A DNA stretch of 32,000 bases from a secondary endosymbiont of Trabutina mannipara. GTDB taxonomy: Bacteria; Pseudomonadota; Gammaproteobacteria; Enterobacterales; Enterobacteriaceae. The stretch spans positions 266,472 through 298,471 of the forward strand of contig NZ_LT594522.1 of assembly GCF_900090215.1 (NCBI RefSeq). The letters are read 5' to 3'. A program made the translations under genes and the position numbers. Below are positions 3,873 to 31,262 of this stretch, piece by piece. The notes under the pieces were generated by a model. The model was not told the origin of the DNA. It searched no databases and was given only the letters and a program-made list of their open reading frames with translations. Position 1 is the first letter of the stretch. The number at the start of each line of letters is the position of its first letter.

Positions 3873-5198
3873 TTATCGATTATAACTTTTTAAAGTTTCT
3901 TTTAAAAATGCATACTCGTACTGAGTAGACATAGTTTGTACTTGGGTCATAAAATCCATGATAACAACAACTACGATCAATAAAGACGTGCCACCGAAAT
4001 AAAATGGAACCTTCATTGCGTTACGCATAAATTCAGGTATTAAGCATATAAAAGTAATATACATAGCACCTACTAGTGTTAGACGATTCATTACCTGATC
4101 TATATATTTTGCTGTTTGTTCTCCAGGACGAATACCAGGTACAAATACTCCTAATTTCTTAAGATTATCTGCTGTTTCTCGAGAATTTAAAACTATTGTT
4201 GTATAAAAATAACATAAAAATATAATTGCCGATGCATATAGTAAGGCATAAAGTGGTTGACCAGGTTGTAAATAAAGAGAGATATTAGTTAGCCATCCAC
4301 AATAGGGACTACCTCCAAACCAGGATACAATAGTAGCTGGAAATAAAATAATACTTGAAGCAAAAATTGCTGGAAGAACTCCAGCCATATTTACTTTTAA
4401 TGGCAAGTGTGTATTTTGATTTAAATAAACACAACGTCCTTGCTGCTGATGCTTTGCGTAATTAACAATAATACGACGCTGACCATGTTCAATGAATATA
4501 ACAAAAAAAGTTACAGCAAAAACTAAAAATGCAACTAAAAGTAAACATAAAAATGGAAAATATCCTTTTATAGTTTGCTTAATAGTATAGCTAATAGCAG
4601 TAGGTAAACCGGCTATAATACCTGTAAATATAATAAGAGATATACCATTACCAATACCACGATCAGTAATTTGTTCACCAAGCCACATAAGGAATATTGT
4701 TCCACAAACTAGACTTAGTATAGCAGTTAAGTAAAAAGAAATTCCTGGAATAATTACTAAAGATTGCATTTCAGGCATATTTGGTAAACCTATTGTAAAA
4801 CTAATTGCTTGAAATATAGCTAATACTAACGCACCATAACGGGCGTATTGGTTTATTTTTTGTATTCCAAATTCACCTTCTTTTTTAATTTCTGAAAGAG
4901 TAGGGTGAATTACAGTTAACAATTGAATAATAATAGACGATGAAATATATGGCATAATTCCTAAAGCAAAAACAGAAGCACGATTAAGTGCACCACCAGA
5001 GAACATGTTAAACATGTCAATAATAGTACTGCGCTGTTGTTCAATTAATTTTGTAAATACAGTACTATTTATTCCAGGTATGGGAATAAAAGAGCCAATA
5101 CGAAAAACAATAAGTGAACCAATAACAAATAAAAATCTACTTTTTAGTTCCTTTATTCCTCTTTTAACATTCCATTCTATTTTTTTATCTTTATCCAT
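3873..5198 (-). CDS. secY: Preprotein translocase subunit SecY
   Basis: 441 aa and multi-[22 protein letters not shown]...[18 protein letters not shown]...[26 protein letters not shown]...[15 protein letters not shown] is colinear with E. coli SecY. Confidence 0.98.
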
Positions 5199-9329: not shown

Positions 9330-9575
9330 TTATAATATAGCTCTTTCTATAACACGAATTAATTTCCAAGATTTAGATTTAGAAATTGGACGACATTCAT
9401 TTATTTCAACAATATCTCCGATATTGCTTTCATTATTCTCATCATGTACATGAAGCTTAGTTGTACGTTTGATAAACTTACCATATATTGGATGTTTTAC
9501 AAACCGTTCAATTATTACAACAATTGATTTTTCCATTTTATTGCTTACTACACGACCTTGCAAAGTATGTATCAT
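9330..9575 (-). CDS. rpsQ: 30S ribosomal protein S17
   Basis: 81 aa. [46 protein letters not shown] matches S17. Confidence 0.96.
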
Positions 9576-9589
9576 TCATTAAGTACCCT

Positions 9590-9640
9590 TTAAGTTAATA
9601 ATGTTTTCACACGCGCAATTTTTATGCAAAAGTTGTATAC
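9590..9640 (-). pseudogene. rpmC: Remnant of 50S ribosomal protein L29 gene (3'-terminal ~16 codons only)
   Basis: Only 91 bp separate rplP and rpsQ, whereas an intact rpmC needs about 190 bp. Translating the - strand from 9640 to 9590 gives VYNFCIKIARVKTLLT followed by a stop. This matches the C-terminal ...RRDVARVKTLLNEK of E. coli L29. An in-frame TAA lies immediately upstream (9643..9641) and there is no start codon. Confidence 0.8.
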
Positions 9641-9666
9641 TTATTTTTTTATTTTGTTTATAATTA

Positions 9667-10095
9667 TTAATTGAAAACTTCAGTAGTTTCCATATGTTTT
9701 TTTATAAATATAGTTTTTATTGGTAATTTTGCTGATGCTAAATTGAATGCTTCATGGGCTAATTCTTCTGTAATACCATCTATTTCATACAAAATCTTAC
9801 CAGGCTGAATTAAAGCAACCCAGTATTCTACATTACCTTTACCTTTACCCATACGTACTTCTAGAGGTTTTTTAGTAATTGGTTTGTCTGGAAAAATACG
9901 AATCCATATCCTACCTTGATGCTTAATTTCATGTGTTATAGCACGACGCGCTGCTTCAATTTGACAAGAAGTTAAATAACCACGTCCAATAGCTTTTAAA
10001 CCAAAACTACCGAATTTAATATCCATACTTACTGCTAGTCCCCGATTGTGACCTTTATGCATTTTACGGAATTTTGTACGTTTTGGTTGTAACAT
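9667..10095 (-). CDS. rplP: 50S ribosomal protein L16
   Basis: The ORF starts [16 protein letters not shown] and E. coli L16 starts [11 protein letters not shown], so the second Met (10095) is the likelier start. There is a 7-aa C-terminal extension (ETTEVFN) beyond the conserved terminal ...KKHM. Confidence 0.96.
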
Positions 10096-10140
10096 CAAAA
10101 ATTCTCCTTGCCTTACTTACCGCTTTATTTACATTAAATT

Positions 10141-10806
10141 TTAATTATTTGTTTTTTTGTGTTCAATAGTATTCATATTACCTAAAATTTCACCTTTAAA
10201 AATCCATACTTTTAATCCTATAACACCATAGATGGTATACGCTTCAGAAGTACTATAATCAATATCTGCTCGCAAAGTATGTAGGGGAACACAACCTTCT
10301 CGATACCATTCAGTACGTGCTATTTCAGATCCTCCTAAACGCCCACTAACTTCAATTTTAATTCCTTTAGCTCCAATACGCATTGCATTCTGTACAGCAC
10401 GTTTCATTACTCTGCGAAACAGAATACGACGTTCTAATTGTGAAGATATACTTTCAGCAACTAATTTAGCATCCATTTCAGGTTTACGTATTTCATTAAT
10501 ATTAATTTGTGCTGGTAATTTAGCGATATGAGATATAATTTTACGTAGTTTTTCAATATCTTCGCCTTTTTTTCCTATTACTAGACCTGGTCTAGCCGTA
10601 TGAATTGTTACCATAATACTATTTGCTGGACGATCTATTACTATACGAGAAATAAAAGAATTCGATAATTCATTAATTAGAAATTTACGAATTTTAAAAT
10701 CGTTATCTAGATTATTAGCAAATTCTTTAGTATTTGCATACCAAGTAGAGTTCCATAATTTAACAATTCCCAGACGAATACCATTTGGGTTGACTTTATG
10801 ACCCAT
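10141..10806 (-). CDS. rpsC: 30S ribosomal protein S3
   Basis: 221 aa. [16 protein letters not shown]...[30 protein letters not shown] matches S3. The basic C-terminal tail is shorter than in E. coli. Confidence 0.97.
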
Positions 10807-10823
10807 TAATTTACTCCAAAAAA

Positions 10824-11156
10824 TTAAATAGATAAAATTACCGTAATATGATTTTTACGTTTTAAGATACGATCTGCACGACCTTTGGCACGTGGCATAA
10901 TACGTTTAATACTGGGACCAATATCAACAAATATTTTTGCAATTTTTAAATCATCAATATCTTCTACACCATTATTGTGTTCAGCATTAGCAATAGCAGA
11001 TTTTATTGTTTTTTTTATTATACCAGCAGCTTTCTTTTTATTATAAGTTAGTTCTTTTAGAGCTTGCGAAACTTTTTTACCACGAATTAGATTCGCTACT
11101 AATCTAACTTTTTGAGCAGAAGAATTCGCATAGCGATATTGAGCTATAGTTTCCAT
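10824..11156 (-). CDS. rplV: 50S ribosomal protein L22
   Basis: 110 aa. [33 protein letters not shown]...[22 protein letters not shown] matches L22. Confidence 0.97.
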
Positions 11157-11173
11157 CTATTTATTTCCTAAAT

Positions 11174-11452
11174 TTAATTTTTTTTAGTAGTTTTATCTGC
11201 TGCATGACCGCGATAAGTACGAGTGGGCGAAAATTCACCTAATTTGTGACCAACCATTTCATCTACAACAAAAACAGGAACATGCTGTCGTCCATTATGG
11301 ATAGCAATAGTTAAACCTATCATTGCTGGATATATTATTGAACGACGTGACCAAGTGCGAATAGTTTTTTTTTCACCTATTTTAACTGCTTTCTCTATTT
11401 TTTTCAGCAAATGTAAATCAATAAATGGACCTTTTTTGAGAGAACGTGGCAT
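11174..11452 (-). CDS. rpsS: 30S ribosomal protein S19
   Basis: 92 aa. [18 protein letters not shown]...[33 protein letters not shown] matches S19. Confidence 0.98.
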
Positions 11453-11462
11453 ATTTTATCCT

Positions 11463-12287
11463 CTAATTTATTATTCGACGACATACTATAAATTTATCAG
11501 TACGTTTATTACTACGAGTTTTTTTACCTTTTGTCTGAAGACCCCATGGAGATACAGGATGCTTACCAAAATTACGTCCTTCACCACCACCGTGCGGATG
11601 GTCAACAGGATTCATTGCTGTACCCCGAACAGTAGAACGTATACCTCTCCATCGTTTAGCACCAGCTTTACCTAAAATACATAACATATGTTCTGCATTA
11701 TCTACTTCACCTAAAGTTGCACGACATTCAGAATTAATTTTACGTATTTCCCCAGAACGTAACCGTAAAGTAACATAAGCACTATCGCGAGATACTATTT
11801 GAATATAAGAACCAGCAGAACGTGCTAATTGACCACCTTTACCTGGTTTCATTTCTACATTATGTATTATGGAACCAATAGGTATTTTTCGCATAGGAAG
11901 AGCATTTCCTATTTTAATTGCTACATCGACACCAGATTCAATTTGGTCACCAACTTTTAGTCCTTTGGGTGCAATTATATAACGTCGTTCACCATCTTTA
12001 TACATTACTAATGTAATATTAGCTGATCTATTAGGATCATATTCAAAACGTTCTATTATTGCTGGAATATCATCTTTATTACGTTTAAAATCTATTATGC
12101 GATATTTTTTTTTGTGCCCACCACCAATATGTCGCATAGTAATACGACCATTATTATTCCGTCCACCTGATTTATTAAGAGGTTTTAGTAATTTATTATA
12201 CGGTTTACCTTTATGAATATTAGAATTTATTATTTTAACAACGTGGCGACGACCTGGAGATGTGGGTTTACACTTAACAATTGACAT
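11463..12287 (-). CDS. rplB: 50S ribosomal protein L2
   Basis: 274 aa. [12 protein letters not shown]...[18 protein letters not shown] matches L2. Confidence 0.98.
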
Positions 12288-12333
12288 TGTTATTATTCCT
12301 CATAATTACAAACACTCTGTTTTTTTATAAAAA

Positions 12334-12620
12334 TTATATATTTTGACCCTTTTTAAAGATAATATAAGCTTTTTTATAGTTACGTTGTTTATGATGCTTA
12401 TTTTTTTCTTTAAATATAAGAGTATGTATTTTATTAATTTTATTTTTTATAATTTTATTAATTTTATTTTTTATATATAGCAGTTTTAATTTCTGCTTTA
12501 TTTGCATCTTTTTTTACTTTAAAAACAATAGTGTTGTATTTTTTTTGAGGTAGATGCTTTTTCAGAAATATGTTGTGATTTAAGTATATCTTAAAATAAA
12601 TTTTTTTTTCTAAAAATCAT
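12334..12620 (-). pseudogene. rplW: 50S ribosomal protein L23 gene, disrupted (in-frame stop plus two frameshifts in poly(A) tracts plus a 24-bp tandem duplication)
   Basis: The 329-bp gap between rplD and rplB has no long ORF. The ATG at 12620 overlaps the rplD TGA (ATGA), as expected for rplW. Hand translation finds L23 homology in three successive frames. The first frame reads MIFRKKNLF-stop-DILKSQHISEKASTSKK. After an A8 tract (12539-12546) the next frame reads YNTIVFKVKKDANKAEIKTAIYKK-stop. After an A6 tract (12467-12472) the third frame reads NKINKIIKNKINKIHTLIFKEKNKHHKQRNYKKAYIIFKKGQNI-stop (stop at 12334). Compare E. coli ...HVSEKAST...[20 protein letters not shown]...NTLVVKGKVKRHGQR...WKKAYVTLKEGQNL. 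Confidence 0.85.
12427..12474 (-). repeat. 24-bp tandem duplication (2 copies, 23/24 identical) inside the rplW remnant
   Basis: + strand copies are TATTTTATTAATTTTATTTTTTAT (12427-12450) and AATTTTATTAATTTTATTTTTTAT (12451-12474). On the - strand the unit is ATAAAAAATAAAATTAATAAAAT(T/A), which encodes IKNKINKI twice in the third L23 frame. Confidence 0.95.
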
Positions 12621-13222
12621 ACCAACATATCCTCAAATTGCTTAATAGCATTAACTGTTATAATAACTTTATCAAAAACAATTAAACTAATAGGGTTAAC
12701 GCTTTTCGTATCGCTAACCTCTACTTTGTAGAGATTACGTGCAGCTAGAAATAAATTCTCATTTAATTTATCTGTAATAATTAAAACATCATCTAATAAT
12801 AAATTTTGTAATTTCTGTACTAAAAATTTTGTTTTGGGTGCTTTTATATAAAAATATTCAACAATAATTAAACGATTTTGACGAATTAATTCTGAAAAAA
12901 TACTTTTTAAAGCTCCACGATACATTTTTTTATTTACTTTTTTACTATAATCTTGCTGCTTAGCTGCAAAAGTTATACCACCAGATCTCCATATAGGACT
13001 TTTAACACTACCAGAACGTGCCCTACCTGTACCTTTCTGACGCCAAGGTTTTTTATTGGAACCAATTACTTCACCACGATTTTTTTGACAACTAGTTCCT
13101 TGACGAGATCCTGCAAAATAAGCTATAATAATTTGATGAATTAATGCTTTATTAAAATTAAATCCAAATATTTTTTCTGAAACATTTAGTATATCCTGTG
13201 TATCTTTTAGTACTAATTCCAT
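12617..13222 (-). CDS. rplD: 50S ribosomal protein L4
   Basis: 201 aa. [32 protein letters not shown] matches L4. Confidence 0.97.
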
Positions 13223-14328: not shown

Positions 14329-15513
14329 TTATTCAATAATTTTAGCTACAACACCAGCACCAATAGTATGACCACCTTCACGAATAGCAAAACGTAAACC
14401 ATTATCCATAGCAATTGGAGATATTAAATTAACAACCATCTTTATATTATCCCCAGGCATAACCATTTCAATACCTTCTGGTAATTCTATAGTACCAGTT
14501 ACATCAGTAGTACGAAAATAAAATTGTGGACGATATCCTTTGAAAAAAGGTGTATGACGTCCTCCTTCATCTTTATTTAAAATATAAACTTCTGAATCAA
14601 ATTTAGTATATGGTTTAATTGATCCTATTTTTGCTAACACTTGACCACGTTCAACTTCATCACGCTTTGTGCCACGAAGTAATATACCAACATTATCTCC
14701 AGCACGTCCTTCGTCTAATAATTTACGAAACATTTCAACGCCAGTACAAATAGTTCTTACAGTATTTTTAATACCTACAATTTCTATTTCATCACCTACT
14801 TTAATTATACCTCTTTCTATACGACCAGTTACTACTGTACCACGTCCTGAAATAGAAAATACATCTTCAATGGGTAATAAAAATGGTTGATCAATAATTC
14901 TTTTAGGTTCTGGAATATATTTATCTAGTGCTTCTGCAAGTTCAATAATTTTTTTAGTCCATATTTCATTACCTTCTAATGCTTTTAATGCAGAACCCCT
15001 AATAATAGGTGTCTTTTCTCCAGGAAAATCATATTGAGATAATAATTCACGTACTTCCATTTCTACAAGTTCTAATAGCTCTTCATCATCAACTATATCA
15101 CATTTATTCATAAATACTACAATATATGGTACACCTACTTGACGACCTAAAAGTATATGTTCCCGAGTTTGGGGCATAGGACCATCAGTAGCTGCAACTA
15201 CCAAAATGGCACCATCCATTTGAGCGGCACCAGTAATCATATTTTTTACATAATCAGCATGTCCTGGACAATCTACATGTGCATAATGACGATTTAAAGT
15301 ATCGTATTCAACATGTGAAGCATTAATAGTAATACCACGAGCTTTTTCTTCTGGTGCATTATCTATTTGTTCACAAGCACGTGCGTTACCACCATAAGCT
15401 TTAGCTAGAACAGTAGTAATAGCAGCCGTTAAAGTAGTTTTTCCATGATCAACATGTCCAATAGTACCTACATTTATATGAGGTTTTGTACGTTGAAATT
15501 TTTCTTTAGACAT
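14329..15513 (-). CDS. tuf: Elongation factor Tu
   Basis: The ORF extends to 15534, but EF-Tu begins [28 protein letters not shown] at the Met at 15513, giving 394 aa. It is near-identical to E. coli EF-Tu throughout. Confidence 0.98.
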
Positions 15514-15613
15514 AAAGATTAATCCTCTTTGCAAATAATATTATATTTCATACTGCCATATTAATATATTCAAAGCAACTATAAGTTTTAGAAAAGATAT
15601 TAGCAATCATAAT

Positions 15614-15686
15614 TGCTGACAGGCAGATTTGAACTGCCGACCTCACCCTTACCAAGAGTGTGCTCTTCCTGCTGAGCTATGTCAGC
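15614..15686 (-). tRNA. thrT: tRNA-Thr (anticodon GGU); 3' CCA not encoded
   Basis: The - strand reads GCTGACATAGCTCAGCAGGAAGAGCACACTCTTGGTAAGGGTGAGGTCGGCAGTTCAAATCTGCCTGTCAGCA. It folds as a cloverleaf with a 7-bp acceptor stem, anticodon loop CTTGGTAAG region and T-loop TTCAAAT. The discriminator A is followed by ATT. Confidence 0.93.
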
Positions 15687-15695
15687 AGCGTATAT

Positions 15696-15770
15696 TGGAG
15701 CGAACAGTGAGAATTGAACCCACATCTTCAGCTTGGAAGGCTGAGGTAATAACCATTATACGATGTTCGC
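15696..15770 (-). tRNA. glyT: tRNA-Gly (anticodon UCC); CCA encoded
   Basis: The - strand reads GCGAACATCGTATAATGGTTATTACCTCAGCCTTCCAAGCTGAAGATGTGGGTTCAATTCTCACTGTTCGCTCCA. It is closely similar to E. coli glyT. Confidence 0.93.
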
Positions 15771-15783
15771 AAAATAATGAATA

Positions 15784-15865
<82 letters not shown>

Positions 15866-15879
15866 TCAAAATTTTTGAA

Positions 15880-15952
15880 TGCCGGCAGAAGGAATCGGAC
15901 CTTCAACCTACTGATTACAAATCAGTTACTCTACCAATTGAGCTATACCGGC
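15880..15952 (-). tRNA. thrU: tRNA-Thr (anticodon UGU); CCA not encoded
   Basis: The - strand reads GCCGGTATAGCTCAATTGGTAGAGTAACTGATTTGTAATCAGTAGGTTGAAGGTCCGATTCCTTCTGCCGGCA followed by TTC. The cloverleaf folds. The T-loop reads TCCGATT. Confidence 0.9.
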
Positions 15953-16055
15953 TATTTACTTTCTATTTTTTAGATTTATATAAAATAATACAATATTTTA
16001 TATTTTTGTCTAATATTTATTAGAATTTTTATTCAATAAAAATTTAATTTTATAA

Positions 16056-19000
16056 TTAATCATTTTTTTTATTTAGAAGTTCTGCTAAATTAGCAGAAGC
16101 TTTATCTGCAGTAATTGTTGGTACTTTAGATAATATATTTTTGGGAATAGCACTATTTTTATGAAAATTATAACCAGTTCCTGCTGGAATTAACCTTCCA
16201 ACTATAACATTTTCTTTTAAACCACGTAATTCATCGTATTTTCCAGCTACAGCAGCTTCTGTTAGTACACGTGTAGTTTCTTGGAAAGATGCTGCTGATA
16301 TAAAAGAATTTGTAGCAAGAGAAGCTTTAGTAATACCTAACAAATTTCGAATATAACTTATTTTTTCTTTACCATTTTTTTCTAAATTTCTATTAGCTAT
16401 TTTAATACGAGAATATTCTACTTGTTCACCTTCTAAAAATTCTGAATTATTACTCTTAGTAATTGTTACTTTACGTAACATTTGACGAATAATAACTTCT
16501 ATATGTTTATCATTAATTTTTACTCCCTGTAATCGATAAACCTCCTGAACTTCATTAACAATATAACGAGTTACTTCATGCACACCACGTAATCGTAGAA
16601 TATCATGCGGAGATTCGGGACCGTCAGAAATAACATCTCCTTGCTCTACACGTTCACCTTCAAATACATTAAGATGACGACATTTGGGAATCATTTCTTC
16701 ATAAGAATTATTATTTTCTATAGATGAAATCAGAAGTCTTCTTTTTCCTTTAGTTTCTTTACCAAAAGTAACTATACCACTAATTTCAGCTAAAATAGCT
16801 GGTTCTTTAGGACAACGAGCTTCAAATAAATCTGCTACACGTGGGAGACCCCCAGTAATATCTTTAATACCACTAGTTTCTTGTGGCAAACGTGCTAATG
16901 TATCACCACAAGTAATTTTAGCACCATCTACAAGATGTACAATTGCTTTTCCTGGTAAAAAGTACTGTGCTGGTATTTCAGTACCAGGTAAAAATACATC
17001 ATTACCATTAATATCAACTATTTGTAATGTAGGACGTAAATCTTTACCACTAATAGTGCGTTCTGAAGTATCTAATACTACTAGAGAAAATAAACCAGTA
17101 AGTTCATCTGTTTGACGAGTAATAGTTTGACCATCAATCATATCAATAAAATGAACAAAACCATTAACTTCAGCAATAATAGGCATAGTATGCGGATCCC
17201 AATTAGCAACTATTTCACCACTTTTAACTTCTGATAAATTTACTTTATCCATTACAGCTCCATAAGGAACTTTATATATTTCTTTAGTTCTACCAAATTT
17301 ATCAATTAATTTTAGTTCAGTATTACGTGAAGTAATAACTAACTTACCATTGCAATTAAATACAAATTTAGCATTTATTAAACTAATTATTCCTTTATTC
17401 TTTACTTGAATGCTAGATTCTGCAGCAGCACGTGAAGCAGCTCCACCAATATGAAATGTACGCATAGTAAGTTGTGTACCTGGTTCACCTATAGACTGTG
17501 CTGCTATAACACCAATAGCTTCTCCTTCATTTACTAAATTACCTCTAGCTAAATCACGACCATAACAATTTGCACAAACTCCAAAATCAGTATCACAAGT
17601 TACTACTGAACGTACTTTAATACTATCAACTAAAAATTTTTCTAAAATATCACAACATTGTTCATTTAATAATGAATTTCGTTCTATTAAAATATCTGAT
17701 GTACCTGGTTTTAGAATATTTTCCACTGTAACACGTCCTAAAACTTTCTCACGAAGAGGTTCTTTAATTTCCCCTCCTTCAATAACAGGAGTCATTAATA
17801 TACCTGAAAAGGTACCACAATCTTTTTCAGTTATTATTAAATCTTGTGCTACATCAACTAAACGACGAGTTAAATATCCAGAATTTGCAGTTTTTAGTGC
17901 AGTATCAGCTAATCCTTTACGAGCACCGTGTGTAGAAATAAAATATTGGAGTACATTTAAACCTTCACGAAAATTTGCAGTAATAGGTGTTTCAATAATG
18001 GAACCATCAGGTTTTGCCATTAAACCACGCATACCTGCTAATTGACGAATTTGTGCTGCTGAACCACGAGCTCCAGAATCAGCCATCATAAAAATACTAT
18101 TAAAAGATACTTGATTTTCTTCTATACCATCATTATTAATTACAGTATCAGTAGATAAATTATCCATCATAGCTTTAGCAATACGTTCATTAGCTGCAGC
18201 CCATATATCTATAACTTTGTTATAACGTTCACCAGCAGTAACTAGACCTGACTGAAATTGTTCTTGTATTTCAGCTACTTCTGCTTCAGCTTCATCAATA
18301 ATTTCTATCTTTTTTTCTGGTATTACCATATCATCTATACCTACTGATGATCCTGAACGAGCAGCATAATAAAATCCTGTATACATAATTTGATCTGCAA
18401 AAATTACAGTTGATTTTAAACCTAATAAGCGATAGCAAGTATTCAGCATTTTAGATATGGATTTTTTACCTAATACCTGATTTACTAATGAGAAAGGTAA
18501 TCCATTAGGAACAATAAGCCATAAAATGGCTCTACCTATAGTAGTATTTATTATACTAGTATTTTCTATCCATTCACTATTATTATTTTTTGTATATTCA
18601 GTAATACGTACTTTAACTCTAGCATGTAATTCTACTATACCCAGTAGATATATTTTTTCAGCTTCTTTAGGTCCAGTTAACACCATACCTTCGCCTTTAG
18701 CATTTATACGATCACGAGTCATATAATATAAACCTAGAACCACATCCTGTGATGGTACAATAATAGGTTCTCCATTTGCAGGAGATAATATATTTTTTGT
18801 AGACATCATTAATGTACGTGCTTCCATTTGTGCTTCTGATGTTAATGGAACATGTACTGCCATTTGATCTCCATCAAAATCAGCATTATATGCTGCACAT
18901 ACTAGAGGATGTAATTGAATAGCTTTTCCTTCAATAAGGACTGGTTCAAATGCTTGGATTCCTAAACGATGTAGTGTTGGTGCTCTATTTAACATAACTG

Positions 19001-20258
19001 GATGTTCATGAATAACTTCATCTAGTATATCCCATACTATAGTTTCTTCACGTTCAACCATTTTTTTTGCAGCTTTAATTGTTGTTGCAAAACCACGAAT
19101 TTCTAGTTTTCCATAAATAAAAGGTTTAAATAGTTCTAATGCCATTTTTTTGGGTAATCCACATTGATGAAGATGTAGATATGGACCAACAGTAATAACT
19201 GAACGTCCAGAATAATCAACACGTTTACCTAATAAGTTTTGTCTAAAACGTCCTTGTTTACCTTTAATCATATCTGACATTGATTTAAGAGAACGTTTAT
19301 TAGAACCAGTAATAGCACGTCCACGACGACCATTATCTATTAGTGCGTCAACTGCCTCTTGTAACATACGTTTTTCATTACGTACAATGATATCTGGTGC
19401 AGCTAGATCTAATAAACGTTTAAGACGATTATTACGATTAATTACACGACGATACAGATCATTTAAATCTGATGTTGCAAATCTACCTCCTTCTAGAGGT
19501 ACTAAAGGACGTAAATCTGGTGGTAGTACTGGTAGTACTGTTAATATCATCCATTCTGGTTTATTTCCTGATTCTAGAAAAGATTCTAATATTTTAATTC
19601 TTTTAGTTATTTTTTTGCGTTTTGTTTCAAAATTAGTATGTTCTAGTTCTTCTCTTAAATTTTCGCATTCATATTTTAAATCCAAATTTTTTAATATATC
19701 ATATATTGATTCAGCACCCATTTTCGCTTTAAATTCATCACCAAATTCTTCCAAAGCATTTAAATATTGATCTTCAGTTAAAATTTGGCGGCATTCAAGA
19801 TTAGTCATACCACTTTCAACTACAATATAAGATTCAAAATATAATACACTTTCTATGTCACGTAATGACATATCTAATAATAACCCAATACGGGAAGGTA
19901 ATGATTTTAAAAACCAAATATGTGCAGTAGGTGAAGCTAATTCAATATGACCCATACGTTCACGACGAACTTTAGTTTGTGTAACTTCTACTCCACATTT
20001 TTCACAAATTACACCTCGATGTTTTAATCTTTTATATTTACCACATAAACATTCATAATCTTTTATAGGTCCAAAAATACGTGCACAAAATAAACCATCT
20101 CTCTCTGGTTTAAAGGTACGGTAATTAATAGTTTCTGCTTTTTTTACTTCACCAAAAGACCAAGAACGAATCATTTCTGGTGAGGCTAGTGTAATTTTTA
20201 TTGCATCAAATTCTTCATTTTTATTTTGTTTTTTTAAAAAATTAAATAAATCTTTCAC
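16056..20258 (-). CDS. rpoC: DNA-directed RNA polymerase beta' subunit
   Basis: 1400 aa, colinear with E. coli RpoC. It contains the zinc motif [20 protein letters not shown] and the catalytic [12 protein letters not shown]. Confidence 0.99.
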
Positions 20259-20348
20259 AGATTGATTCCTACCGAAGTTAAATAACTTTAAATTATTCTT
20301 GAACTTGAAACTATCAATCTATCTTGTATACTAAGTACCAGTATATGA

Positions 20349-23300
20349 TTACTTATTTTTTTCCAATTCAATATTTATCCCTAAAGATCTAATCTCTTTT
20401 AATAAAACATTAAAAGATTCAGGCATACTGGGTTCCATCATATAATTACCATCAATGATATTTTTATACATTTTAGTTCTACCATTAACATCATCTGATT
20501 TAATAGTTAGCATTTCTTGTAATGAATAAGCAGCACCATATGCTTCTAAAGCCCATACTTCCATTTCTCCAAAACGCTGGCCACCAAATTGTGCTTTTCC
20601 TCCTAAAGGTTGTTGAGTAACTAAACTATAAGATCCCGTAGAACGGGCATGCATTTTGTCATCTACTAAATGATTAAGTTTTAACATATACATATATCCA
20701 ACAGTAACCTGTCGTTCGAATTTTTCTCCTGTTCTTCCGTCAAATAAAGTTATTTGACCAGAACTAGGTAAACCACTCAGTTTTAATAATTCTTTAATTT
20801 CTTTTTCTTTAGCACCGTCAAAAACTGGTGTAGCAATTGGCATTCCTTTTTTTAAGTTGTTTGCTAAACAAAGTATTTCTTCATCAGAAAATGAATCAAT
20901 GTTTATTTTCTGGCGTAAATTATCACCTACATTATAAGCTTTCTGAATGAATTTACGTAATTTTTTAATATTATTATGCTGATTTAGCATATAATTGATT
21001 TTATCACCAATACCTTTTGCTGCCATACCTAAATGAGTTTCTAAAATTTGACCTATATTCATCCTAGAAGGAACACCTAAAGGATTTAGAACTATATCTA
21101 CAGGTACACCATTTTCATCATAAGGCATATCTTCAATTGGATTAATTTTAGAAATTACACCTTTATTACCATGACGTCCTGCCATTTTATCACCAGGTTG
21201 AATTTGCAGTTTTACTGCTAGATATACTTTAACTACTTTAAGTATACCTGGTGCTAAATTATCATATTGAATTATTTTATTTTTCTTTGCTTCTAATTTC
21301 TTTTGAAATTCATACTTAAGTTCTTGATATTGTTCTATAAGTTGATCAAATTGATTTTTAATATCTTTATTTATAATATCTATTTCTAACCAATTTTTAC
21401 GTGTTAATTTATCTAATTTTGAGGATTCTATTCCACTAAGAATAAGAAGATTACGAATACGTGAAAATAATCCATTTTCAAAAATATGTAATTCTTCAGT
21501 AAGGTCTTTTTTAATCTGTTGAAGTTGTATTTCTTCTATTTCTAACGCACGCTTATCTTTTTTAACGCCATCTCGAGTAAAAATTTGAACATCAATAACA
21601 ACACCTGAAGTACCATTTGGTACCCGTAATGATGAATCTTTTACGTCAGAAGCTTTTTCACCAAAAATAGCTCTTAATAATTTTTCTTCTGGTGTTAATT
21701 GACTTTCACCTTTTGGTGTGACTTTACCTACTAAAATATCACCATCACTAACTTCAGCACCAATATATACAATACCTGATTCATCTAATTTTGAAAGTGC
21801 AGATTCTCCTACATTTGGAATATCAGCAGTAATTTCTTCAGAACCTAATTTTGTATCACGAGATATACAAGTCATTTCCTGAATATGTACAGTAGTAAAA
21901 CGATCTTCCTGTACAACTTTTTCAGATATTAACATAGAATCTTCAAAATTATAACCATTCCAAGGCATAAAGGCAATACGCATATTTTGACCAAGAGCTA
22001 ACTCACCTAAATCTGTAGATGGTCCATCAGCTATTACATCTCCACGATTAATTAGTTCACCTAAAGAAACACAAGGTTTTTGATTAATACAAGTATTTTG
22101 ATTAGAACGAATATATTTTTTTAGATTATAAATATCAATACCAGCTTCTCCAGAAAAAGTTTCATCAGAATTAACATTAATAACAATACGAGATGCATCT
22201 ACGTATTGTACTTTTCCACTACGTTTTGCTACAATAGTAACACCTGAATCAACTGCAACAATACGTTCCATACCAGTACCAACTAATGGTTTATCAGTAA
22301 TCAAATTAGGTATTGCTTGACGTTGCATATTGGCACCCATTAATGCCCTATTAGCATCATTATGTTCTAAAAATGGAATAAGAGAAGCACCAACTGATAC
22401 TATTTGTTGAGTAGAAACATCCATATAATTAATTTGTTTACTGTTAAATAAACTTGATTCGCCTTTATTGCGACAAGTTATAAACTCATCTACAAAATGA
22501 CCATCTTTACTAAGATTAGTATTTGCTTGTGCTATAACAAAATAGCCTTCTTCAATTGCTGAAAGATAATGTATTTCATCAGTAACAACACCATTCTGTA
22601 CAAGACGATAGGGAGTTTCAAGAAATCCATATTCATTAGTTTGTGCATATACAGATAATGAGTTTATAAGACCAATATTGGGTCCTTCTGGAGTTTCTAT
22701 AGAACATATACGACCATAATGAGTTGGATGTACATCACGAACTTCAAAACTTGCACGTTCACGAGTTAAACCACCAGGTCCTAATGCAGAAATACGTCTT
22801 TTATGTGTAATTTCTGAAAGAGGATTATTTTGATCCATAAATTGTGATAATTGACTAGAACTAAAAAATTCTTTTATTGCGGCTGAAATTGGTTTAGCAT
22901 TAATCATATCTTGCGGCATTAAATTATCCATATCTCCTAAAGATAGACGTTCTTTTACTGCACGTTCTACACGTAATAATCCAATACGAAACTGATTTTC
23001 TGCCATTTCACCTACTGCACGAATTCTTCTATTACCTAAATGATCAATATCGTCAATTTCACCTTTACCATTTCGAATATCAATAAGTTTTTTAATAACA
23101 TCAACAATATCTTTTTTTTCTAAAATACCAGGACCTTCACTTTCTTTACGTAAAAGTGAACGATTAAATTTCATCCTACCTACTGCTGATAAATCATAAC
23201 GTTCTTCTGAAAAAAATAAATTTTTAAATAAATTTTCAGCGGCTTCATTAGTGGGTAATTCACCAGGACGCATCATACGATATATTTCTAAAAGTGCATT

Positions 23301-24383
23301 TAAACGATCATTAGTAGGATCAATAAGTAAAGTTTCAGAAATATAAGCACCATTATCTAAATTATTTATAAATAATGTTTCAATAATTTTATGTCCTGCT
23401 TTAATTAATTTGTTGATTATATCAATTGTTAATGCTTTGTTAGCATAAATAATATTTTCTCCAGTTTTTTCATCAAAATAATCTTTTGCTACTATTTTTC
23501 CTATAATATATTCTATAGGAACATTAATCTGTTCAATATTATCTTTTTTTAAATGATCAATATGACGTGATGTTACTCTACGACCTTTTTCCACATAAAG
23601 AATACCTTTCTCTTTTATATCAAATAAAGCAGTTTCACCACGTAAAAATTCAGGAATTAAGTTCATTATCAAATTTTGATTATTAATCTCATAAATTACT
23701 TTTTTGAAAAAAATATCTAAAATTTGATTAGTACTATAATTAAGGGCTCTTAAAAGAAGAGTAACAGGTAATTTACGACGACGATCAATACGAAAAAATA
23801 AATTATCTTTTAAATCAAATTCAAAATCTAACCATGAACCACGGTAAGGAATAATGCGAGCATTATATAATATTTTTCCAGAAGAATGTATTTTACCTTT
23901 ATCACTATCAAAAAAAACTCCTGGACTACGGTGTAATTGAGAAACAACGACACGTTCTGTACCATTAATTATAAAAGTACCGTTATCTGTCATGAGTGGT
24001 ATTTCACCCATATATACTTCTTGTTCTTTTATATTCTTTACTGTAATTTCTGATATTTCGCGTTCATAAATAATAAGACGCAATTTTACACGTAAAGGTG
24101 ACGAAAAAGTTATCCCCCTCATTTGGCATTCTTTTATATCAAAAATAGGATCTCCTAAACGATAAGTAACATACTGTAATTCAGATTTACCATTATAGCT
24201 TTTTATAGGAAATATAGAACGAAAAACTGCTTCTAAACCATATTGACCTTCTATATCTTGTTCTATAAATTTTTGAAATGAATCAAGCTGAATAGAAAGA
24301 AGATAAGGAATATCTAAAATTTGCGGACGTTTTCCGAAATCTTTACGAATACGTTTTTTTTCAGTATGAGAGTAAAAAAACAT
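20349..24383 (-). CDS. rpoB: DNA-directed RNA polymerase beta subunit
   Basis: The ORF opens at 24395 ([25 protein letters not shown]). E. coli RpoB starts [16 protein letters not shown], so the Met at 24383 is the likelier start, giving 1344 aa. It is colinear with RpoB. Confidence 0.98.
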
Positions 24384-24464
24384 AGAGCTCCTCAATTAGT
24401 TAACATAAATATTAACAGAAACAGAAAATGGATATAGTTTAGTATGTGTTTTTAACATCTATAT

Positions 24465-24502
24465 TTAACTAATTAATTAACTAATTAAATTAACCTAATT
24501 AA
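24465..24502. repeat. Three tandem copies of a 12-13 bp unit TTAAC(C)TAATTAA in the rplL-rpoB spacer
   Basis: TTAACTAATTAA occurs at 24465-24476 and 24477-24488. TTAACCTAATTAA occurs at 24490-24502. Confidence 0.88.
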
Positions 24503-24532
24503 ATTTTATTATAATGTAGAAATTTTTCTAAT

Positions 24533-24561
24533 TTATTATTAAATAAATTATTTAATAATAA
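24533..24561 (-). other. 29-nt perfect A/T-only palindrome 5 nt downstream of the rplL stop
   Basis: TTATTATTAAATAA-A-TTATTTAATAATAA has 14-nt arms and is centred on 24547. It sits where E. coli has the rplL-rpoB attenuator region. No U tract follows it on the - strand. Confidence 0.4.
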
Positions 24562-24565
24562 TAAA

Positions 24566-24946
24566 TTAGTTAATGCTAATAGTAGCACCTACCTTTTCCA
24601 GTAAATTTTTTAAATTTTCAGCATCATTTTTATTTAATCCTGTTTTTATAATAGCAGGTGCAGATTCAACTAAATCTTTTGATTCTTTTAATCCTAACCC
24701 AGTAGCTCCACGAACAGCTTTAATAACAGCAATTTTATTGGTACCAATTTCATTTAAAAAAACTTTAAATTCAGTTTGTTCTTCTATTGTTTTTTCAATA
24801 GGTACTTCTTTTGTAATTGCTACATCTATAGCAGTTTGATTAGCAGAAATACTAAATTTTTTTTCCATCATAGATATTAATTCAACTACATCTAGGACAG
24901 ACATTTTAGCAATTGTGTCAATAATTTGTTCTTTAGTTATAAACAT
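24566..24946 (-). CDS. rplL: 50S ribosomal protein L7/L12
   Basis: 126 aa. [31 protein letters not shown]...[27 protein letters not shown] matches L7/L12. Confidence 0.97.
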
Positions 24947-24983
24947 TTTAATTTTTTTCCTAATTTAAAAATTAATTTAAAAA

Positions 24984-25487
24984 TTAAATATTATATTTTT
25001 CTTTTTTATTACATACTGCAATTAATGTACGAAATAATTTCGTTATAGATATATTTTTTATAGTTGATACTAAAAAAATGACTGATTCTTTATAATTTGG
25101 CATATTTACTAAACTCTCAATTTGAGAATCTTGAATAAGATTTCCTTCTAAAACTGCCATTTTAATTTTTAAATTAGTATTTTTTTTAGAAAAAGAGGTA
25201 AGTAAACGAGCTGATGTATTAACATTTTCTTTAGAAAATGCAATAATATTAGGACCAATAAATTTATCTTTTAAACATTCCAAAGAAGTACCTTTAACTG
25301 CACGTTGCATTAATCTATTACGAACAATATATAGTTGAATATTAGATTCACGACTTAATTTACGTAGTTCAGTCATTTGGTTTGCTGTAATACCACTAAA
25401 ATCCATAATAAAAGCAGATATAGCATTCATTGATATTTGTTTAAATTTATTAATAATATTTTTTTTATTTTTAAAATTTAAAACCAT
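24984..25487 (-). CDS. rplJ: 50S ribosomal protein L10
   Basis: 167 aa, more diverged. MTELRKLSRESNIQLYIVRNRLMQRAVKGTSLECLKDKFIGPNIIAFS aligns with E. coli L10 ([48 protein letters not shown]). Confidence 0.93.
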   Translation of the reverse strand: MVLNFKNKKNIINKFKQISMNAISAFIMDFSGITANQMTELRKLSRESNIQLYIVRNRLMQRAVKGTSLECLKDKFIGPNIIAFSKENVNTSARLLTSFSKKNTNLKIKMAVLEGNLIQDSQIESLVNMPNYKESVIFLVSTIKNISITKLFRTLIAVCNKKEKYNI

Positions 25488-25557
25488 AAACTTTATCCCT
25501 TAAGTTATTAACTTTACCTAATACCTAAAATAGGAATTTTTTTTCAAAATTTAAATT

Positions 25558-26262
25558 TTAAATAACAAATCTAGATAAACAATTTTTATTAATTACTATA
25601 CCTGCTCCCATCGTAGTAGATATGCTAATTTTTTTTATATAAATACCTTTTGTAGGTATTGGTTTATCTTTTTTTAATGCAAGAAGTAATGTTTCTAAAT
25701 TTTCTTCTAATTTATTAGAATCAAAATTTATTTTACCTATAGTAGTATGAATTATACCTTTTTTATCAGTACGATATTGTATTTGACCATATTTTGCATT
25801 TTTAACTGCTTCACTAATATTAGAAGTAACAGTACCAAGTTTAGGATTAGGCATTAAATTACGTGGTCCTAAAAATTTTCCTAACTTACTTACAATATGC
25901 ATTAAATCAGGAGAAGCAATAACTATATCAAAATCAAATTTACCTATTTTAATATTATCAACTAAATTGTTAATACCTATTATATCTGCACCAGCAGTTT
26001 TAGCTATTTGAGCATTAATTCCTTGAGCAAATACCGCTACACGAACATTACGACCATTTCCATGCGGAAATACTACAGTACCACAAATATTGTGATTTGA
26101 TTTATGTGTATCGATATTAAGCTGAATAGCAATATCGACACTTTCATTAAAATTAACTAGTGTAAATTTTTTTAATAAAAATAAAGCTGAATTTATATCA
26201 TATTGCTTACTAAAATTAATTTGATCTCGTATAATACGCATACGTTTGGTAAGCTTAGTCAT
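25558..26262 (-). CDS. rplA: 50S ribosomal protein L1
   Basis: 234 aa. [15 protein letters not shown]...VRVAVFAQG...[16 protein letters not shown]...[19 protein letters not shown] matches L1. Confidence 0.96.
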
Positions 26263-26265
26263 ATT

Positions 26266-26694
26266 TTAACTCTCTATTTCTATACCTATAGAATAGGCTG
26301 TCCCAATAATAGAACGGACCATTGCTGATATATCAGAACCTGTCATATCAGGTGCTTTTATTTTAGCTATTTCAATAATTTGTGCATTAGTTATTTTACC
26401 TACTTTATTTTTATTTGGTTTACTAGATCCAGATTTGATACTTACAGTTTTCTTTAATAAAATAGCTGTAGGAGTACTTTTAGTAATAAAAGTAAAAGAA
26501 CGATCAGAATATACAGTAATAACAACTGGAATAGGTAAACCTTTTTCAAGAGAATCTGTTTTAGTATTAAATAATTTACAAAATTCAATTATATTAATAC
26601 CATGTTGACCTAAAGATGGTCCTACTGGAGGACTCGGATTTGCCATACCTGCAGCAATTTGCAGTTTTACATAGGATTTTATTTTTTTAACCAT
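26266..26694 (-). CDS. rplK: 50S ribosomal protein L11
   Basis: 142 aa. [34 protein letters not shown]...[11 protein letters not shown] matches L11. Confidence 0.97.
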
Positions 26695-26783
26695 ATAAAT
26701 CTCATTTAAAATGAAAAAATTTCAATTTTATTGTTTAATAATGTCAGATAAGATGTAAAACTTAAAAAAATAAATAAAAAATT

Positions 26784-26824
26784 TAATTTTTTTTCAACTT
26801 GATTTAATTTTTTTCAACTTGATT
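26784..26824 (-). repeat. Tandem duplication (20/21 nt) of the nusG 3' end including its stop codon
   Basis: + strand TAA-T8-CAACTTGATT (26784-26804) is followed by TAA-T7-CAACTTGATT (26805-26824). The two copies differ only by one T in the homopolymer. The second copy encodes NQVEKN-stop of nusG. Confidence 0.93.
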
Positions 26825-27349
26825 GAAATCTAATTCTACTGAAGTAGCACGACCAAAAATAGAAACTGATACTTTTAAACGATTTTTTTCATAATCTACT
26901 TCTTCTACTGTACAGTTAAAATCAGAAAATGGTCCGTCGATGACACGTATTAATTCACCAGGTTCAAAAATAATTTTTGGTCTGGGTTTATCACCAATTT
27001 TTTTTAATCTATTAATAATTATATCAACTTCTTTATTACTTATCGGTGCAGGACGATCTGAAGTACCTCCAACAAAACCCATAACATGTGATATATTGCG
27101 TACTAAATGCCAACTATCATTGTTCATTACCATTTGTACTAAAATATAACCAGGAAAAAATTTACGTTCACTTTTACGACGCTGATTACCACGAATTTCA
27201 ATTATATCTTCTTTAGGAATAAGAACAGTTCCAAAAAAATTTTCCATATTTTGAAGTTTTATATGTTCTATAATAGAACGAGCTACACGTTTTTCAAAAC
27301 CAGAAAACGCTTGAATAACATACCAATTTTTTTGGAAAGATTCAGACAT
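26804..27349 (-). CDS. nusG: Transcription termination/antitermination factor NusG
   Basis: 181 aa. [18 protein letters not shown]...FPGYILVQM...[14 protein letters not shown]...[50 protein letters not shown] matches NusG. Confidence 0.97.
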
Positions 27350-27361
27350 TTTATTAAAACC

Positions 27362-27574
27362 TCAAGTAATAAATGATATGATATAAACTATAATACCATC
27401 TATTACCCATAAAATTAATGACATTAATGATGTTACCAGAGTTACTATTAATGTATTTTTTAATGTTTCTTGATAAGAAGGCCAAATAATTTTACGTAAT
27501 TCAGCATATAATTCAATTATAAAATAAAAAATAAATTTAATTTTAAATAACATTTTTTTTAAAAAAAGATTCAA
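27362..27574 (-). CDS. secE: Preprotein translocase subunit SecE, short single-TM form
   Basis: 70-aa [49 protein letters not shown] aligns with the C-terminal third of E. coli SecE ([46 protein letters not shown]). No sequence corresponds to TM1 or TM2. The start could be Met1 or Met8. Confidence 0.88.
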
Positions 27575-27594
27575 AAGAATAGATTCTATAATCT

Positions 27595-27624
27595 ATAATA
27601 CATAAATACATAACATACAGTCAA
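27595..27624 (-). promoter_or_regulatory. Candidate sigma70-type promoter for secE-nusG
   Basis: On the - strand, TTGACT (27624..27619) is followed by an 18-nt spacer and TATTAT (27600..27595), which ends about 20 nt upstream of the secE ORF start (27574). AT-rich background makes -10-like hexamers common, so this is tentative. Confidence 0.3.
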
Positions 27625-27683
27625 ATAACTTTTTTTTAAAAAATTACTATTATTTAGTTACTTAGTTAACTGTTATAATCCCA

Positions 27684-27700
27684 ACCCCATATTATGGGGT
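27684..27700 (-). terminator. GC-containing hairpin in the fusA-secE spacer (possible fusA terminator or processing site)
   Basis: ACCCCAT-ATT-ATGGGGT forms a 7-bp stem with 4 G:C pairs and a 3-nt loop. It is the only G+C-rich element in 336 bp of A/T. On the - strand it is followed by TGGGATTATAAC, which is only a weak U tract. Confidence 0.35.
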
Positions 27701-27836
27701 AATATTAAAAACATAAAATATTATATATAGCAATATTTTATTTGTATATTACATTTACTAAATTATGTTTTTAAAATAAATTAACGTACTTTTATTTTTT
27801 TCAAATTGAATAGCTAATTTTCATATATAATATTTA

Positions 27837-27866
27837 TGAAATAAATACCATCGAAATAAATACCAT
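27837..27866. repeat. 15-bp tandem duplication in the fusA-secE spacer
   Basis: TGAAATAAATACCAT (27837-27851) is followed by CGAAATAAATACCAT (27852-27866). Confidence 0.9.
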
Positions 27867-27910
27867 AATTGGATAGTGCTATTAGTTAATAGAATTTTAA
27901 AAAATTTATT

Positions 27911-30714: not shown

Positions 30715-31089
30715 TTAATTTTTTATATTTTTTACACCATATTTAGACCGTCCTTTTTTACGATTTTTAACACCAGAACAATCAAGAGAACCACGAATAA
30801 TATGATACCGTACACCTGGTAGATCTTTTACACGACCACCACGTATTAATATTACAGAATGTTCTTGAATATTATGACCTTCACCACCAATATATGAAGT
30901 AACTTCAAATCCATTAGTTAATCGAACACGGCAAACTTTACGCAAAGCTGAATTTGGTTTTTTGGGAGTTGTTGTATATACTCGAGTACATACTCCCCGT
31001 TTTTGTGGACAAGATTCTAATGCTGTAACATTACTTTTTGTAATTTTTCTAGAACGTTTTTTTCGTACTAGTTGATTAATTGTTGTCAT
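30715..31089 (-). CDS. rpsL: 30S ribosomal protein S12
   Basis: 124 aa. [13 protein letters not shown]...[47 protein letters not shown] matches S12. An AGGAG (31103..31099) lies 9 nt upstream of the ATG. Confidence 0.98.
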
Positions 31090-31108
31090 TCAATAATGCT
31101 CCTAATAA

Positions 31109-31132
31109 TTATAATTAAAATTATAATTAAAA
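31109..31132. repeat. 12-bp perfect tandem duplication upstream of rpsL
   Basis: TTATAATTAAAA occurs at 31109-31120 and 31121-31132, inside the 173-bp tusB-rpsL spacer, which is almost entirely A/T. Confidence 0.88.
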
Positions 31133-31262
31133 ATAAAAATTTAAATTTATTTAATTAAAATTTAAAATTTTAATTTTTATAAATTTAAATTACTTTTATT
31201 AAATTTTTTATATTAACTTTTTTATAATTTTATTTTATTAATTTTTAATTACTAATTTTTAA

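What the first reader, a model, noticed from the sequence alone, without database searches (positions are those of the whole stretch)
9576..12620. The only two decayed genes in about 50 are the two neighbouring tunnel-exit proteins L23 and L29
- **Seen in sequence:** every other gene of the S10, spc, alpha, L11, L10 and str clusters in this window is intact. Only rplW and rpmC are degraded.
- **Established knowledge:** L23 and L29 sit side by side at the polypeptide exit site of the 50S subunit. L23 is the main docking site for trigger factor and for SRP.
- **Inference:** joint decay suggests relaxed selection on the co-translational chaperone and targeting platform. This could follow loss of tig and/or ffh-ftsY, a shrunken membrane proteome, or replacement by a host factor. 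It argues against random hits.
- SecY is intact here and SecE is reduced to its minimal form, so translocation itself is kept.
Basis: inference. Interest (0 to 1): 0.62.

Follow-up and report, generated by a model that had tools for sequence, protein, structure and literature searches.

The report
Decayed L23 and L29 ribosomal genes
In a tiny bacterium living inside another bacterium in a mealybug, the genes for two neighbouring proteins at the ribosome's exit hole (L23, L29) are dead while all 52 other ribosomal protein genes are intact; this is real and unusual for L23, but it is one more case of known gene loss in shrinking genomes.

Summary
The genome is the published 298,471-bp 'Candidatus Trabutinella endobia', which lives inside Tremblaya in the manna mealybug.

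- **rplW (12288-12620, minus strand):** it carries a TAA at codon 10, two frameshifts, a perfect 24-bp tandem duplication, a 15-bp deletion and an early stop.
- **rpmC:** only a remnant of about 100 bp survives.
- **Other ribosomal proteins:** all 52 other genes are full length, genome-wide.
- **Sister genome (Mikella endobia):** both genes are intact there.

However, at least 11 other small genomes in 5 genera lack tig and SRP yet keep both genes. Client loss is therefore at most permissive, not sufficient.

Gene loss in this lineage is strongly modular (fab, suf, pyruvate dehydrogenase, recBCD). That favours a functional link over pure coincidence, but this is a single case.

- The 23S rRNA has no deletions.
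- L22, L24 and L17 are not evolving faster.
- SecY, SecA, Map and Def are kept.

Precedents exist. L29 loss is frequent in tiny genomes, and rplW is reported missing in Shikimatogenerans.

The parts
12288..12620 (-). rplW (uL23) pseudogene. It is about full length but broken by a stop, two frameshifts, a duplication, a deletion and an early stop.
   Evidence: A read-through concept scores 42.1 bits on Pfam L23, against 95.3 bits for the intact same-genus gene.
12591..12593 (-). In-frame TAA at codon 10 of rplW.
   Evidence: frame 0 reads MIFRKKNLF*.
12539..12546 (-). A8 run where 2 bp are missing relative to the sister genome. This is the first frameshift (frame 0 to +1).
12428..12475 (-). Perfect 24-bp tandem duplication (TATAAAAAATAAAATTAATAAAAT, two copies) within the second frameshifted stretch.
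   Evidence: Alignment to the sister genome.
12334..12507 (-). Longest surviving ORF (57 aa). It covers only the C-terminal third of L23 and lacks 5 residues of the tunnel loop.
   Evidence: Pfam score 20.0 bits, below the cut-off.
9576..9693 (-). rpmC (uL29) remnant. The old start codon and 7 further codons are now the tail of rplP (9693-9667). This is followed by a 91-bp spacer holding the last 16 codons (9640-9590).
9667..10098 (-). rplP (L16), intact, with a 7-residue C-terminal extension read from the rpmC remnant.
   Evidence: Pfam L16, 155.5 bits.
12617..13222 (-). rplD (L4), intact upstream neighbour.
11463..12287 (-). rplB (L2), intact downstream neighbour with its own GAGGA ribosome-binding site.
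9330..9575 (-). rpsQ (S17), intact.
3873..5198 (-). secY, intact and slowly evolving in this lineage.
   Evidence: 23 lineage-specific changes against 103 in the sister genome.
27362..27574 (-). secE, minimal one-domain form (70 aa).
   Evidence: Pfam SecE, 58.9 bits.

Best explanation
Both genes are true pseudogenes that arose in the Trabutinella lineage after it split from Mikella.

1. The common background had already lost the main users of the L23/L29 docking surface. These are trigger factor, SRP (Ffh and 4.5S RNA), its receptor FtsY, and SecB.
2. The inner-membrane proteome had shrunk to about a dozen proteins.
3. This removed most selection on the docking role of the pair. What remained was only their contribution to 50S assembly. 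That contribution is dispensable for L29 in E. coli, and for L23 in B. subtilis at a cost.
4. Under the strong drift and deletion bias of this genome, rpmC was probably inactivated first, because it is now half deleted.
5. rplW followed more recently. It is still full length and carries an undiverged 24-bp duplication.

The ribosome most likely works without uL23 and uL29. Secretion then relies on SecA/SecYEG acting after translation.

- **Shown:** the lesions, the lineage specificity, the inventory and the modular pattern of loss.
- **Inferred:** the causal link, the order of events and the protein-free exit site.
For: - **Lesions and lineage:** lesions are documented. The same-genus genome has both genes intact.
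- **No second copy:** none is found in the genome.
- **Relaxed constraint on the rplW remnant:**
  - About 80% nucleotide identity on aligned columns plus 48 gap columns, against 80.5-93% for the neighbouring genes (gaps counted; rplX lowest).
  - 10 versus 3 lineage-specific residue changes, while all other genes give 243 versus 350 (Fisher p = 0.019).
- **Clients absent:** tig, ffh/ftsY, ffs and secB are absent and yidC is truncated.
- **Small and decaying membrane proteome:** cydA is frameshifted and all fab genes are lost.
- **Modular loss in this lineage:**
  - FabB/D/G/I/Z
  - SufB/D/S/E
  - AceE/AceF/Lpd plus LipA
  - RecB/D plus SbcB and RadA
- **Sister lineage:** it dismantles the same pathway at other points. 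yidC is gone and SecY is 4.5-fold faster.
- **Dispensability:** L23 is non-essential in B. subtilis (10.1101/300103). L29 is deletable in E. coli and often lost.
Against: - At least 11 genomes in 5 genera lack tig and SRP yet keep both genes.
- The sister genome lacks yidC too and keeps both.
- SecYEG, SecA, Map and Def, which also use this surface, are retained.
- The 23S rRNA shows no deletion, and nt 1301-1400, which I recall as the uL23-binding part of domain III, are 91% identical to E. coli.
- L22, L24 and L17 are not accelerated.
- This is a single lineage, so no statistics are possible.
- The final version of the comparative study did not retain the TF-uL29 association.
- Reads and RNA could not be examined.
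Confidence: 0.5

Rival explanations
1. Coincidence. Two independent neutral losses occurred under drift. L29 is one of the ribosomal proteins most often lost anywhere. L23 was simply the next tolerable hit, and its position next to L29 carries no functional meaning.
For: - Most tig- and SRP-less genomes keep both genes.
- L29 loss is common and can occur as the only ribosomal protein loss.
- The genome has 27 annotated pseudogenes and is still eroding.
- The published Pagel tests do not link uL23 to TF.
Against: - Given L29, a random second loss hitting L23 has a chance of about 1 in 53.
- L23 was found in every single-contig genome of about 800 sampled in the class.
- Losses in this lineage fall in functional sets.
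Confidence: 0.3
2. rplW is still partly expressed. RNA polymerase slippage at the A9, A8 and A6 runs, or ribosomal frameshifting, restores the frame in some transcripts and yields some L23.
For: - Two of the frame changes lie at A runs (12546-12539 and 12472-12467).
- Other genes of this genome are broken at single homopolymers (earlier notes on topA and yidC).
- The remnant is still transcribed as part of the S10 operon. This is inferred from its position.
Against: - Full length needs stop read-through at codon 10 plus two separate one-base slips in the same mRNA. The output would be far below the one-per-ribosome need.
- The gene also has a 24-bp duplication, a 15-bp deletion in the tunnel loop, a truncated end and faster substitution.
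- The repaired concept scores only 42 bits, against 95.
Confidence: 0.05
3. Supply in trans. uL23 and uL29 come from outside, either from the surrounding Tremblaya cell or from a host-encoded gene, and are imported into Trabutinella.
For: - The 23S rRNA binding regions are unchanged.
- The consortium is known for shared gene products, and Tremblaya keeps most ribosomal proteins.
Against: - The proposed flow of translation factors is from the inner bacterium outwards.
- No ribosomal protein transfers to the host are reported in the genome paper.
- A betaproteobacterial L23 would have to cross two membranes and fit a gammaproteobacterial ribosome.
- Nothing could be tested here.
Confidence: 0.05
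4. Assembly or sequencing artefact.
For: - Some lesions lie in A runs.
- Reads could not be inspected.
Against: - The assembly is Illumina HiSeq at 1216-fold coverage, made with SPAdes.
- Lesions include a substitution-type stop, a 24-bp duplication, a 15-bp deletion and about 92 bp of deletions in rpmC.
- All 52 other ribosomal protein genes, which are equally A-rich, are intact.
Confidence: 0.03

Closest known systems
Loss of rpmC (uL29) in tiny symbiont genomes (Uzinura, Walczuchella, Fokinia), and the 'exit tunnel' loss pattern of TF plus uL29 proposed in the Nikolaeva et al. preprint
   Same: L29 is lost in a genome that also lacks trigger factor. In the flavobacterial cases it is lost with an almost complete ribosomal protein set.
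   Different: Here L23 is lost as well. [quoted passage not shown]
rplW missing in all 13 'Candidatus Shikimatogenerans' genomes (Bacteroidota beetle symbionts, 172-200 kb; bioRxiv 10.1101/2025.10.31.685726)
   Same: It is a natural loss of the universal protein uL23 in an obligate insect symbiont.
   Different: It is a different phylum with smaller genomes that lack several ribosome genes. Here the gene is caught as a recognisable pseudogene in a genome with every other ribosomal protein. I could not check whether those genomes lack rpmC, tig or SRP.
Bacillus subtilis rplW deletion mutants (Akanuma et al.; 10.1101/300103)
   Same: They show that a bacterium can live without L23.
   Different: It is a laboratory deletion with a 70S-formation defect and slow growth. 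E. coli, a much closer relative, is reported to need L23 (my recollection of the Keio collection).
Poly(A)-tract frameshifts rescued by RNA polymerase slippage in Buchnera and Blochmannia (Tamas et al. 2008, recalled)
   Same: Frame changes lie at A runs in an AT-rich endosymbiont.
   Different: Those cases have one lesion in a long run in an otherwise conserved gene. rplW has at least five lesions, including a stop codon and indels outside the runs.
'Candidatus Mikella endobia' (same GTDB genus, 352,837 bp)
   Same: It has the same niche inside Tremblaya and the same absence of tig, SRP, 4.5S RNA and secB.
   Different: It keeps a full ribosomal protein set. Instead it has lost yidC and has a fast-evolving SecY.

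Membership tests
Functional uL23 gene (Pfam PF00276 Ribosomal_L23) | One uninterrupted reading frame of about 100 codons | tested here: not met
   Stop at codon 10 and three frames needed; the longest ORF is 57 aa.
Functional uL23 gene (Pfam PF00276 Ribosomal_L23) | Profile score above the curated cut-off (30.8 bits) | tested here: not met
   Scores of 19.4, 17.1 and 20.0 bits for the natural frames. Only an artificial read-through reaches 42.1 bits.
Functional uL23 gene (Pfam PF00276 Ribosomal_L23) | Position between rplD and rplB in the S10 operon | tested here: met
   This shows ancestry, not function.
Functional uL29 gene (Pfam PF00831 Ribosomal_L29) | Reading frame of about 63 codons with a profile match | tested here: not met
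   No match at E <= 10 in the whole genome. The spacer is 91 bp.
Functional uL29 gene (Pfam PF00831 Ribosomal_L29) | Position between rplP and rpsQ | tested here: met
   The remnant aligns to the 3' end of the sister's rpmC (34 bp, 85%).
Genes rescued by transcriptional slippage at poly(A) tracts | A single one-base frameshift inside a long A/T run in an otherwise conserved gene | tested here: not met
   At least five lesions, with a stop codon and indels outside the runs, and accelerated change.
Genes rescued by transcriptional slippage at poly(A) tracts | Corrected transcripts or full-length protein observed | not testable with these tools
Exit-site co-loss pattern (TF with uL29) | Trigger factor gene absent | tested here: met
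Exit-site co-loss pattern (TF with uL29) | Loss of the ribosomal partner correlates with client loss across lineages | tested here: inconclusive
   The one L23/L29-less genome lacks tig and SRP, but at least 11 tig- and SRP-less genomes keep both. The literature is divided.

The most novel reading that the evidence does not exclude
The two missing universal exit-site proteins are supplied in trans and imported into Trabutinella, either from the surrounding Tremblaya cell or from the host. That would be ribosomal-protein sharing between nested bacteria. The unchanged 23S rRNA binding regions do not exclude it. Nothing here supports it directly.
Probability: 0.05. Interest if true: 0.85.

Novelty: new member of a known kind. 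Interest (0 to 1): 0.4.

Why it matters
uL23 is a universal ribosomal protein. It is the main landing pad for trigger factor, SRP, SecA and the translocon.

This bacterium keeps every other ribosomal protein, SecYEG, SecA, Map and Def, but has just lost uL23 and uL29. It is therefore a natural knockout of the exit-site platform. It could show what that platform is needed for once co-translational targeting is gone.

Comparison with the sister genome suggests that, after SRP loss, different parts of the same pathway decay in different lineages. The sister has lost yidC, has a fast-evolving SecY, and keeps L23 and L29 intact.

The genome paper does not mention these two pseudogenes.

The finding is a modest addition to a known pattern, not a new kind of system.

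Tried and rejected
- **rRNA co-decay.** I expected deletions in the L23 or L29 binding regions of 23S rRNA. None are present.
- **Spread of relaxation to other exit proteins.** L22, L24 and L17 show no excess of lineage-specific changes.
- **Second gene copy elsewhere in the genome.** None was found.
- **Alternative genetic code.** I checked the nine hits flagged with an in-frame stop. Six of the stops are ends of genes and two are real pseudogene hits (grxD TGA; a TAA at codon 5 of a 114-aa gene). One TAG lies in a short ORF I took to be spurious. There is no sign of recoding.
- **The repeat finder on the rplW slot.** It reported nothing. A script then found the perfect 24-bp duplication.
- **Class-level scan.** It added no very small genomes lacking L23. 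The misses it listed (20 of 27) were multi-contig drafts.
- **Literature gaps.**
  - Supplements of the genome paper and of Nikolaeva et al. are not held.
  - The journal version of Galperin et al. is not held.
  - I therefore could not learn which ribosomal proteins Tremblaya lacks, or which genomes lack uL23 in those data sets.
- **E. coli queries.** The window genes were rechecked with E. coli sequences from a RefSeq record.
Full report
**What the window is**

The window is the last 32 kb of a single-contig genome of 298,471 bp with 32.6% G+C. These figures match the published 'Candidatus Trabutinella endobia'. That bacterium is a gammaproteobacterium living inside 'Ca. Tremblaya princeps' in the manna mealybug Trabutina mannipara. 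The paper reports 237 proteins and 27 pseudogenes, from Illumina HiSeq data at 1216-fold coverage assembled with SPAdes. Its main text never mentions rplW or rpmC.

The only same-genus genome held is a contig of 352,837 bp. That size matches 'Ca. Mikella endobia'. A survey names Mikella as the smallest genome with a full set of core ribosomal proteins.

**The observation: rplW**

The S10 operon runs on the minus strand. Between rplD (12617-13222) and rplB (11463-12287) lies a 329-bp slot.

- Its ATG (12620-12618) overlaps the rplD stop.
- Frame 0 reads MIFRKKNLF, then TAA at codon 10, then DILKSQHISEKASTSKK.
- Frame +1 continues with YNTIVFKVKKDANKAEIKTAIYKK.
- Frame +2 ends with NKINKIHTLIFKEKNKHHKQRNYKKAYIIFKKGQNI.

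Aligned to the intact sister gene (102 codons), the lesions are as follows:

- the stop codon at codon 10;
- a 2-bp loss at an A8 run (12546-12539);
- a second net frameshift;
- a perfect 24-bp tandem duplication (12475-12428);
- a 15-bp deletion that removes five residues of the loop which, in E. coli, reaches into the tunnel;
- a stop nine codons early.

No natural frame reaches the Pfam L23 cut-off. A read-through concept scores 42 bits. The sister gene scores 95 bits.

**The observation: rpmC**

- The rplP-rpsQ spacer is only 91 bp.
- rplP now reads through the old rpmC start and gains seven residues.
- Only the last 16 codons (...IARVKTLLT) remain recognisable.
- About 92 bp are missing in five pieces.
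- No L29 profile match exists anywhere in the genome.

**Other ribosomal protein genes**

Every other ribosomal protein gene in the window matches E. coli over nearly its whole length. The 22 genes outside the window are also full length. These include the usually dispensable L9, L25, L30, S21 and L31-L36. The pair is therefore 2 of 54 genome-wide.

**Are the lesions real and lineage-specific?**

- An artefact is unlikely. Coverage was very deep, most lesions are not homopolymer errors, and equally A-rich neighbouring genes are intact.
- All 40 relatives first sampled have L23 and L29, apart from two fragmented drafts that lack an L23 match. One of those drafts also has only a marginal L29 match. 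The relatives include seven genomes of 0.3-0.6 Mb.
- In two wider samples of 401 (order) and 400 scored (class), this is the only single-contig genome without an L23 match above the cut-off.
  - All 16 other misses in the order sample are drafts of 50-950 contigs.
  - The 20 class misses that were listed are drafts of 30-870 contigs. Seven more were not listed.
- The rplW remnant has diverged faster than its neighbours.
  - It has about 80% nucleotide identity on aligned columns plus 48 gap columns.
  - The neighbouring genes have 80.5-93% with gaps counted, rplX being the lowest.
- It also has 10 lineage-specific residue changes against 3 in the sister. All other genes together give 243 against 350 (p = 0.019).
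- rpmC is half deleted, while rplW is full length and holds an undiverged duplication. I infer that rpmC died first.

**The predicted inventory**

| Item | Result |
|---|---|
| tig | absent |
| SRP54-type domain (ffh, ftsY) | absent |
| 4.5S RNA | absent; the model found it in two 0.5-0.6 Mb relatives |
| secB | absent |
| yidC | frameshifted near its end |
| secA, secY, minimal secE, secG, lepB, map, def | present |

A crude hydropathy screen plus Pfam finds about a dozen inner-membrane proteins. These are ClsA, DsbB, an MscK-like channel, CydA (split by a frameshift), CydB, YggT, one CydC/D-type ABC transporter with a second unscanned ORF beside it, LepB, YidC and SecY. A 633-aa two-helix protein was not scanned and is perhaps FtsH. 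SecE and SecG were identified separately.

**Does client loss explain the decay?**

It explains it only in part. Both tig and SRP are also missing in the following genomes, all of which have intact L23 and L29:

- the sister genome;
- two 0.5-Mb genomes;
- two 0.9-Mb genomes;
- at least six 0.2-Mb genomes.

The sister has even lost yidC entirely. Client loss is therefore common and not sufficient.

Three observations still favour a functional link over pure chance.

1. Gene loss since the split from the sister is strikingly modular.
   - FabB/D/G/I/Z
   - SufB/D/S/E
   - AceE/AceF/Lpd with LipA
   - RecB/D with SbcB and RadA
   - H-NS, Fis and Hfq
   - several redox proteins and RNA-modification enzymes
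2. The sister lineage erodes the same pathway at other points. yidC is gone, and SecY has 103 lineage-specific changes against 23 here.
3. The second hit fell on the one protein that shares the docking surface with L29.

Against a deeper remodelling of the ribosome:

- The 23S rRNA has no deletions. Nucleotides 1301-1400, which I recall as the uL23-binding part of domain III, are 91% identical to E. coli.
- L22, L24 and L17 are not accelerated.

**Slippage rescue**

Two frame changes lie at A runs. Full-length L23 would still need read-through of a TAA plus two separate one-base slips in one mRNA. It would also carry the duplication, the loop deletion and the truncation. This cannot supply one copy per ribosome. 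I give this reading about 5%.

**What is known**

- L29 is among the most frequently lost ribosomal proteins and is the only one missing in Uzinura and Walczuchella.
[quoted passage not shown]
- L23 is dispensable in B. subtilis at a cost to 70S formation.
- rplW is reported missing in all 13 Shikimatogenerans genomes.

This case is therefore a new member of a known kind. It is notable for catching rplW in the act of decaying, in a genome with every other ribosomal protein.

**Verdict**

- Best reading (about 0.5): relaxed selection on the exit-site docking pair after loss of SRP and TF, followed by chance fixation.
- Coincidence is about 0.3. The other readings are small.

Noticed in passing
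window 14329-30013 (minus strand): The gene order is unusual. rpsL-rpsG-fusA is followed directly by secE-nusG-rplKAJL-rpoBC. Then come thrU-tyrU-glyT-thrT (15613-15952), a single tuf and rpsJ. This looks like the outcome of recombination between tufA and tufB with loss of one copy.
   Followed up: no
L020/L025 (sister genome G001, secY at about 94542-95849): SecY of the sister genome is intact but has 103 lineage-specific residue changes against 23 in this genome. The sister has also lost yidC entirely.
   Followed up: partly
G000:C1:36321-37846 (outside the window): cydA (cytochrome bd subunit I) is split into two frames (227 and 278 aa). cydB and a CydC/D-type ABC transporter (one of two adjacent ORFs scanned) look intact.
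   Followed up: partly
G000:C1:104849-106227 (outside the window): tilS (lysidine synthetase, normally essential) matches the sister gene in two pieces in different frames (residues 2-368 and 372-463), so it appears frameshifted near its C-terminal domain.
   Followed up: no
G000:C1:223635-223772 (outside the window): grxD carries an in-frame TGA in place of a conserved Gly in an otherwise 89% identical stretch. This looks like a very young pseudogene.
   Followed up: no
whole genome versus sister genome: Genes present in the sister but absent or broken here fall into whole pathways. These are fatty-acid synthesis, Suf Fe-S assembly, pyruvate dehydrogenase plus lipoate, RecBCD/SbcB/RadA, H-NS/Fis/Hfq, TrxA/GrxD/Fpr/FldA/NfuA, and Tgt/RlmN/RluB/TusE/YgfZ/PrmB.
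   Followed up: partly
window 9667-9693: L16 has acquired a 7-residue C-terminal tail (METTEVFN region) by reading into the dead rpmC start.
   Followed up: yes
window 31001-32000: G+C falls to 15.5% in the last kilobase of the contig, beyond tusB (31263-31601).
   Followed up: no
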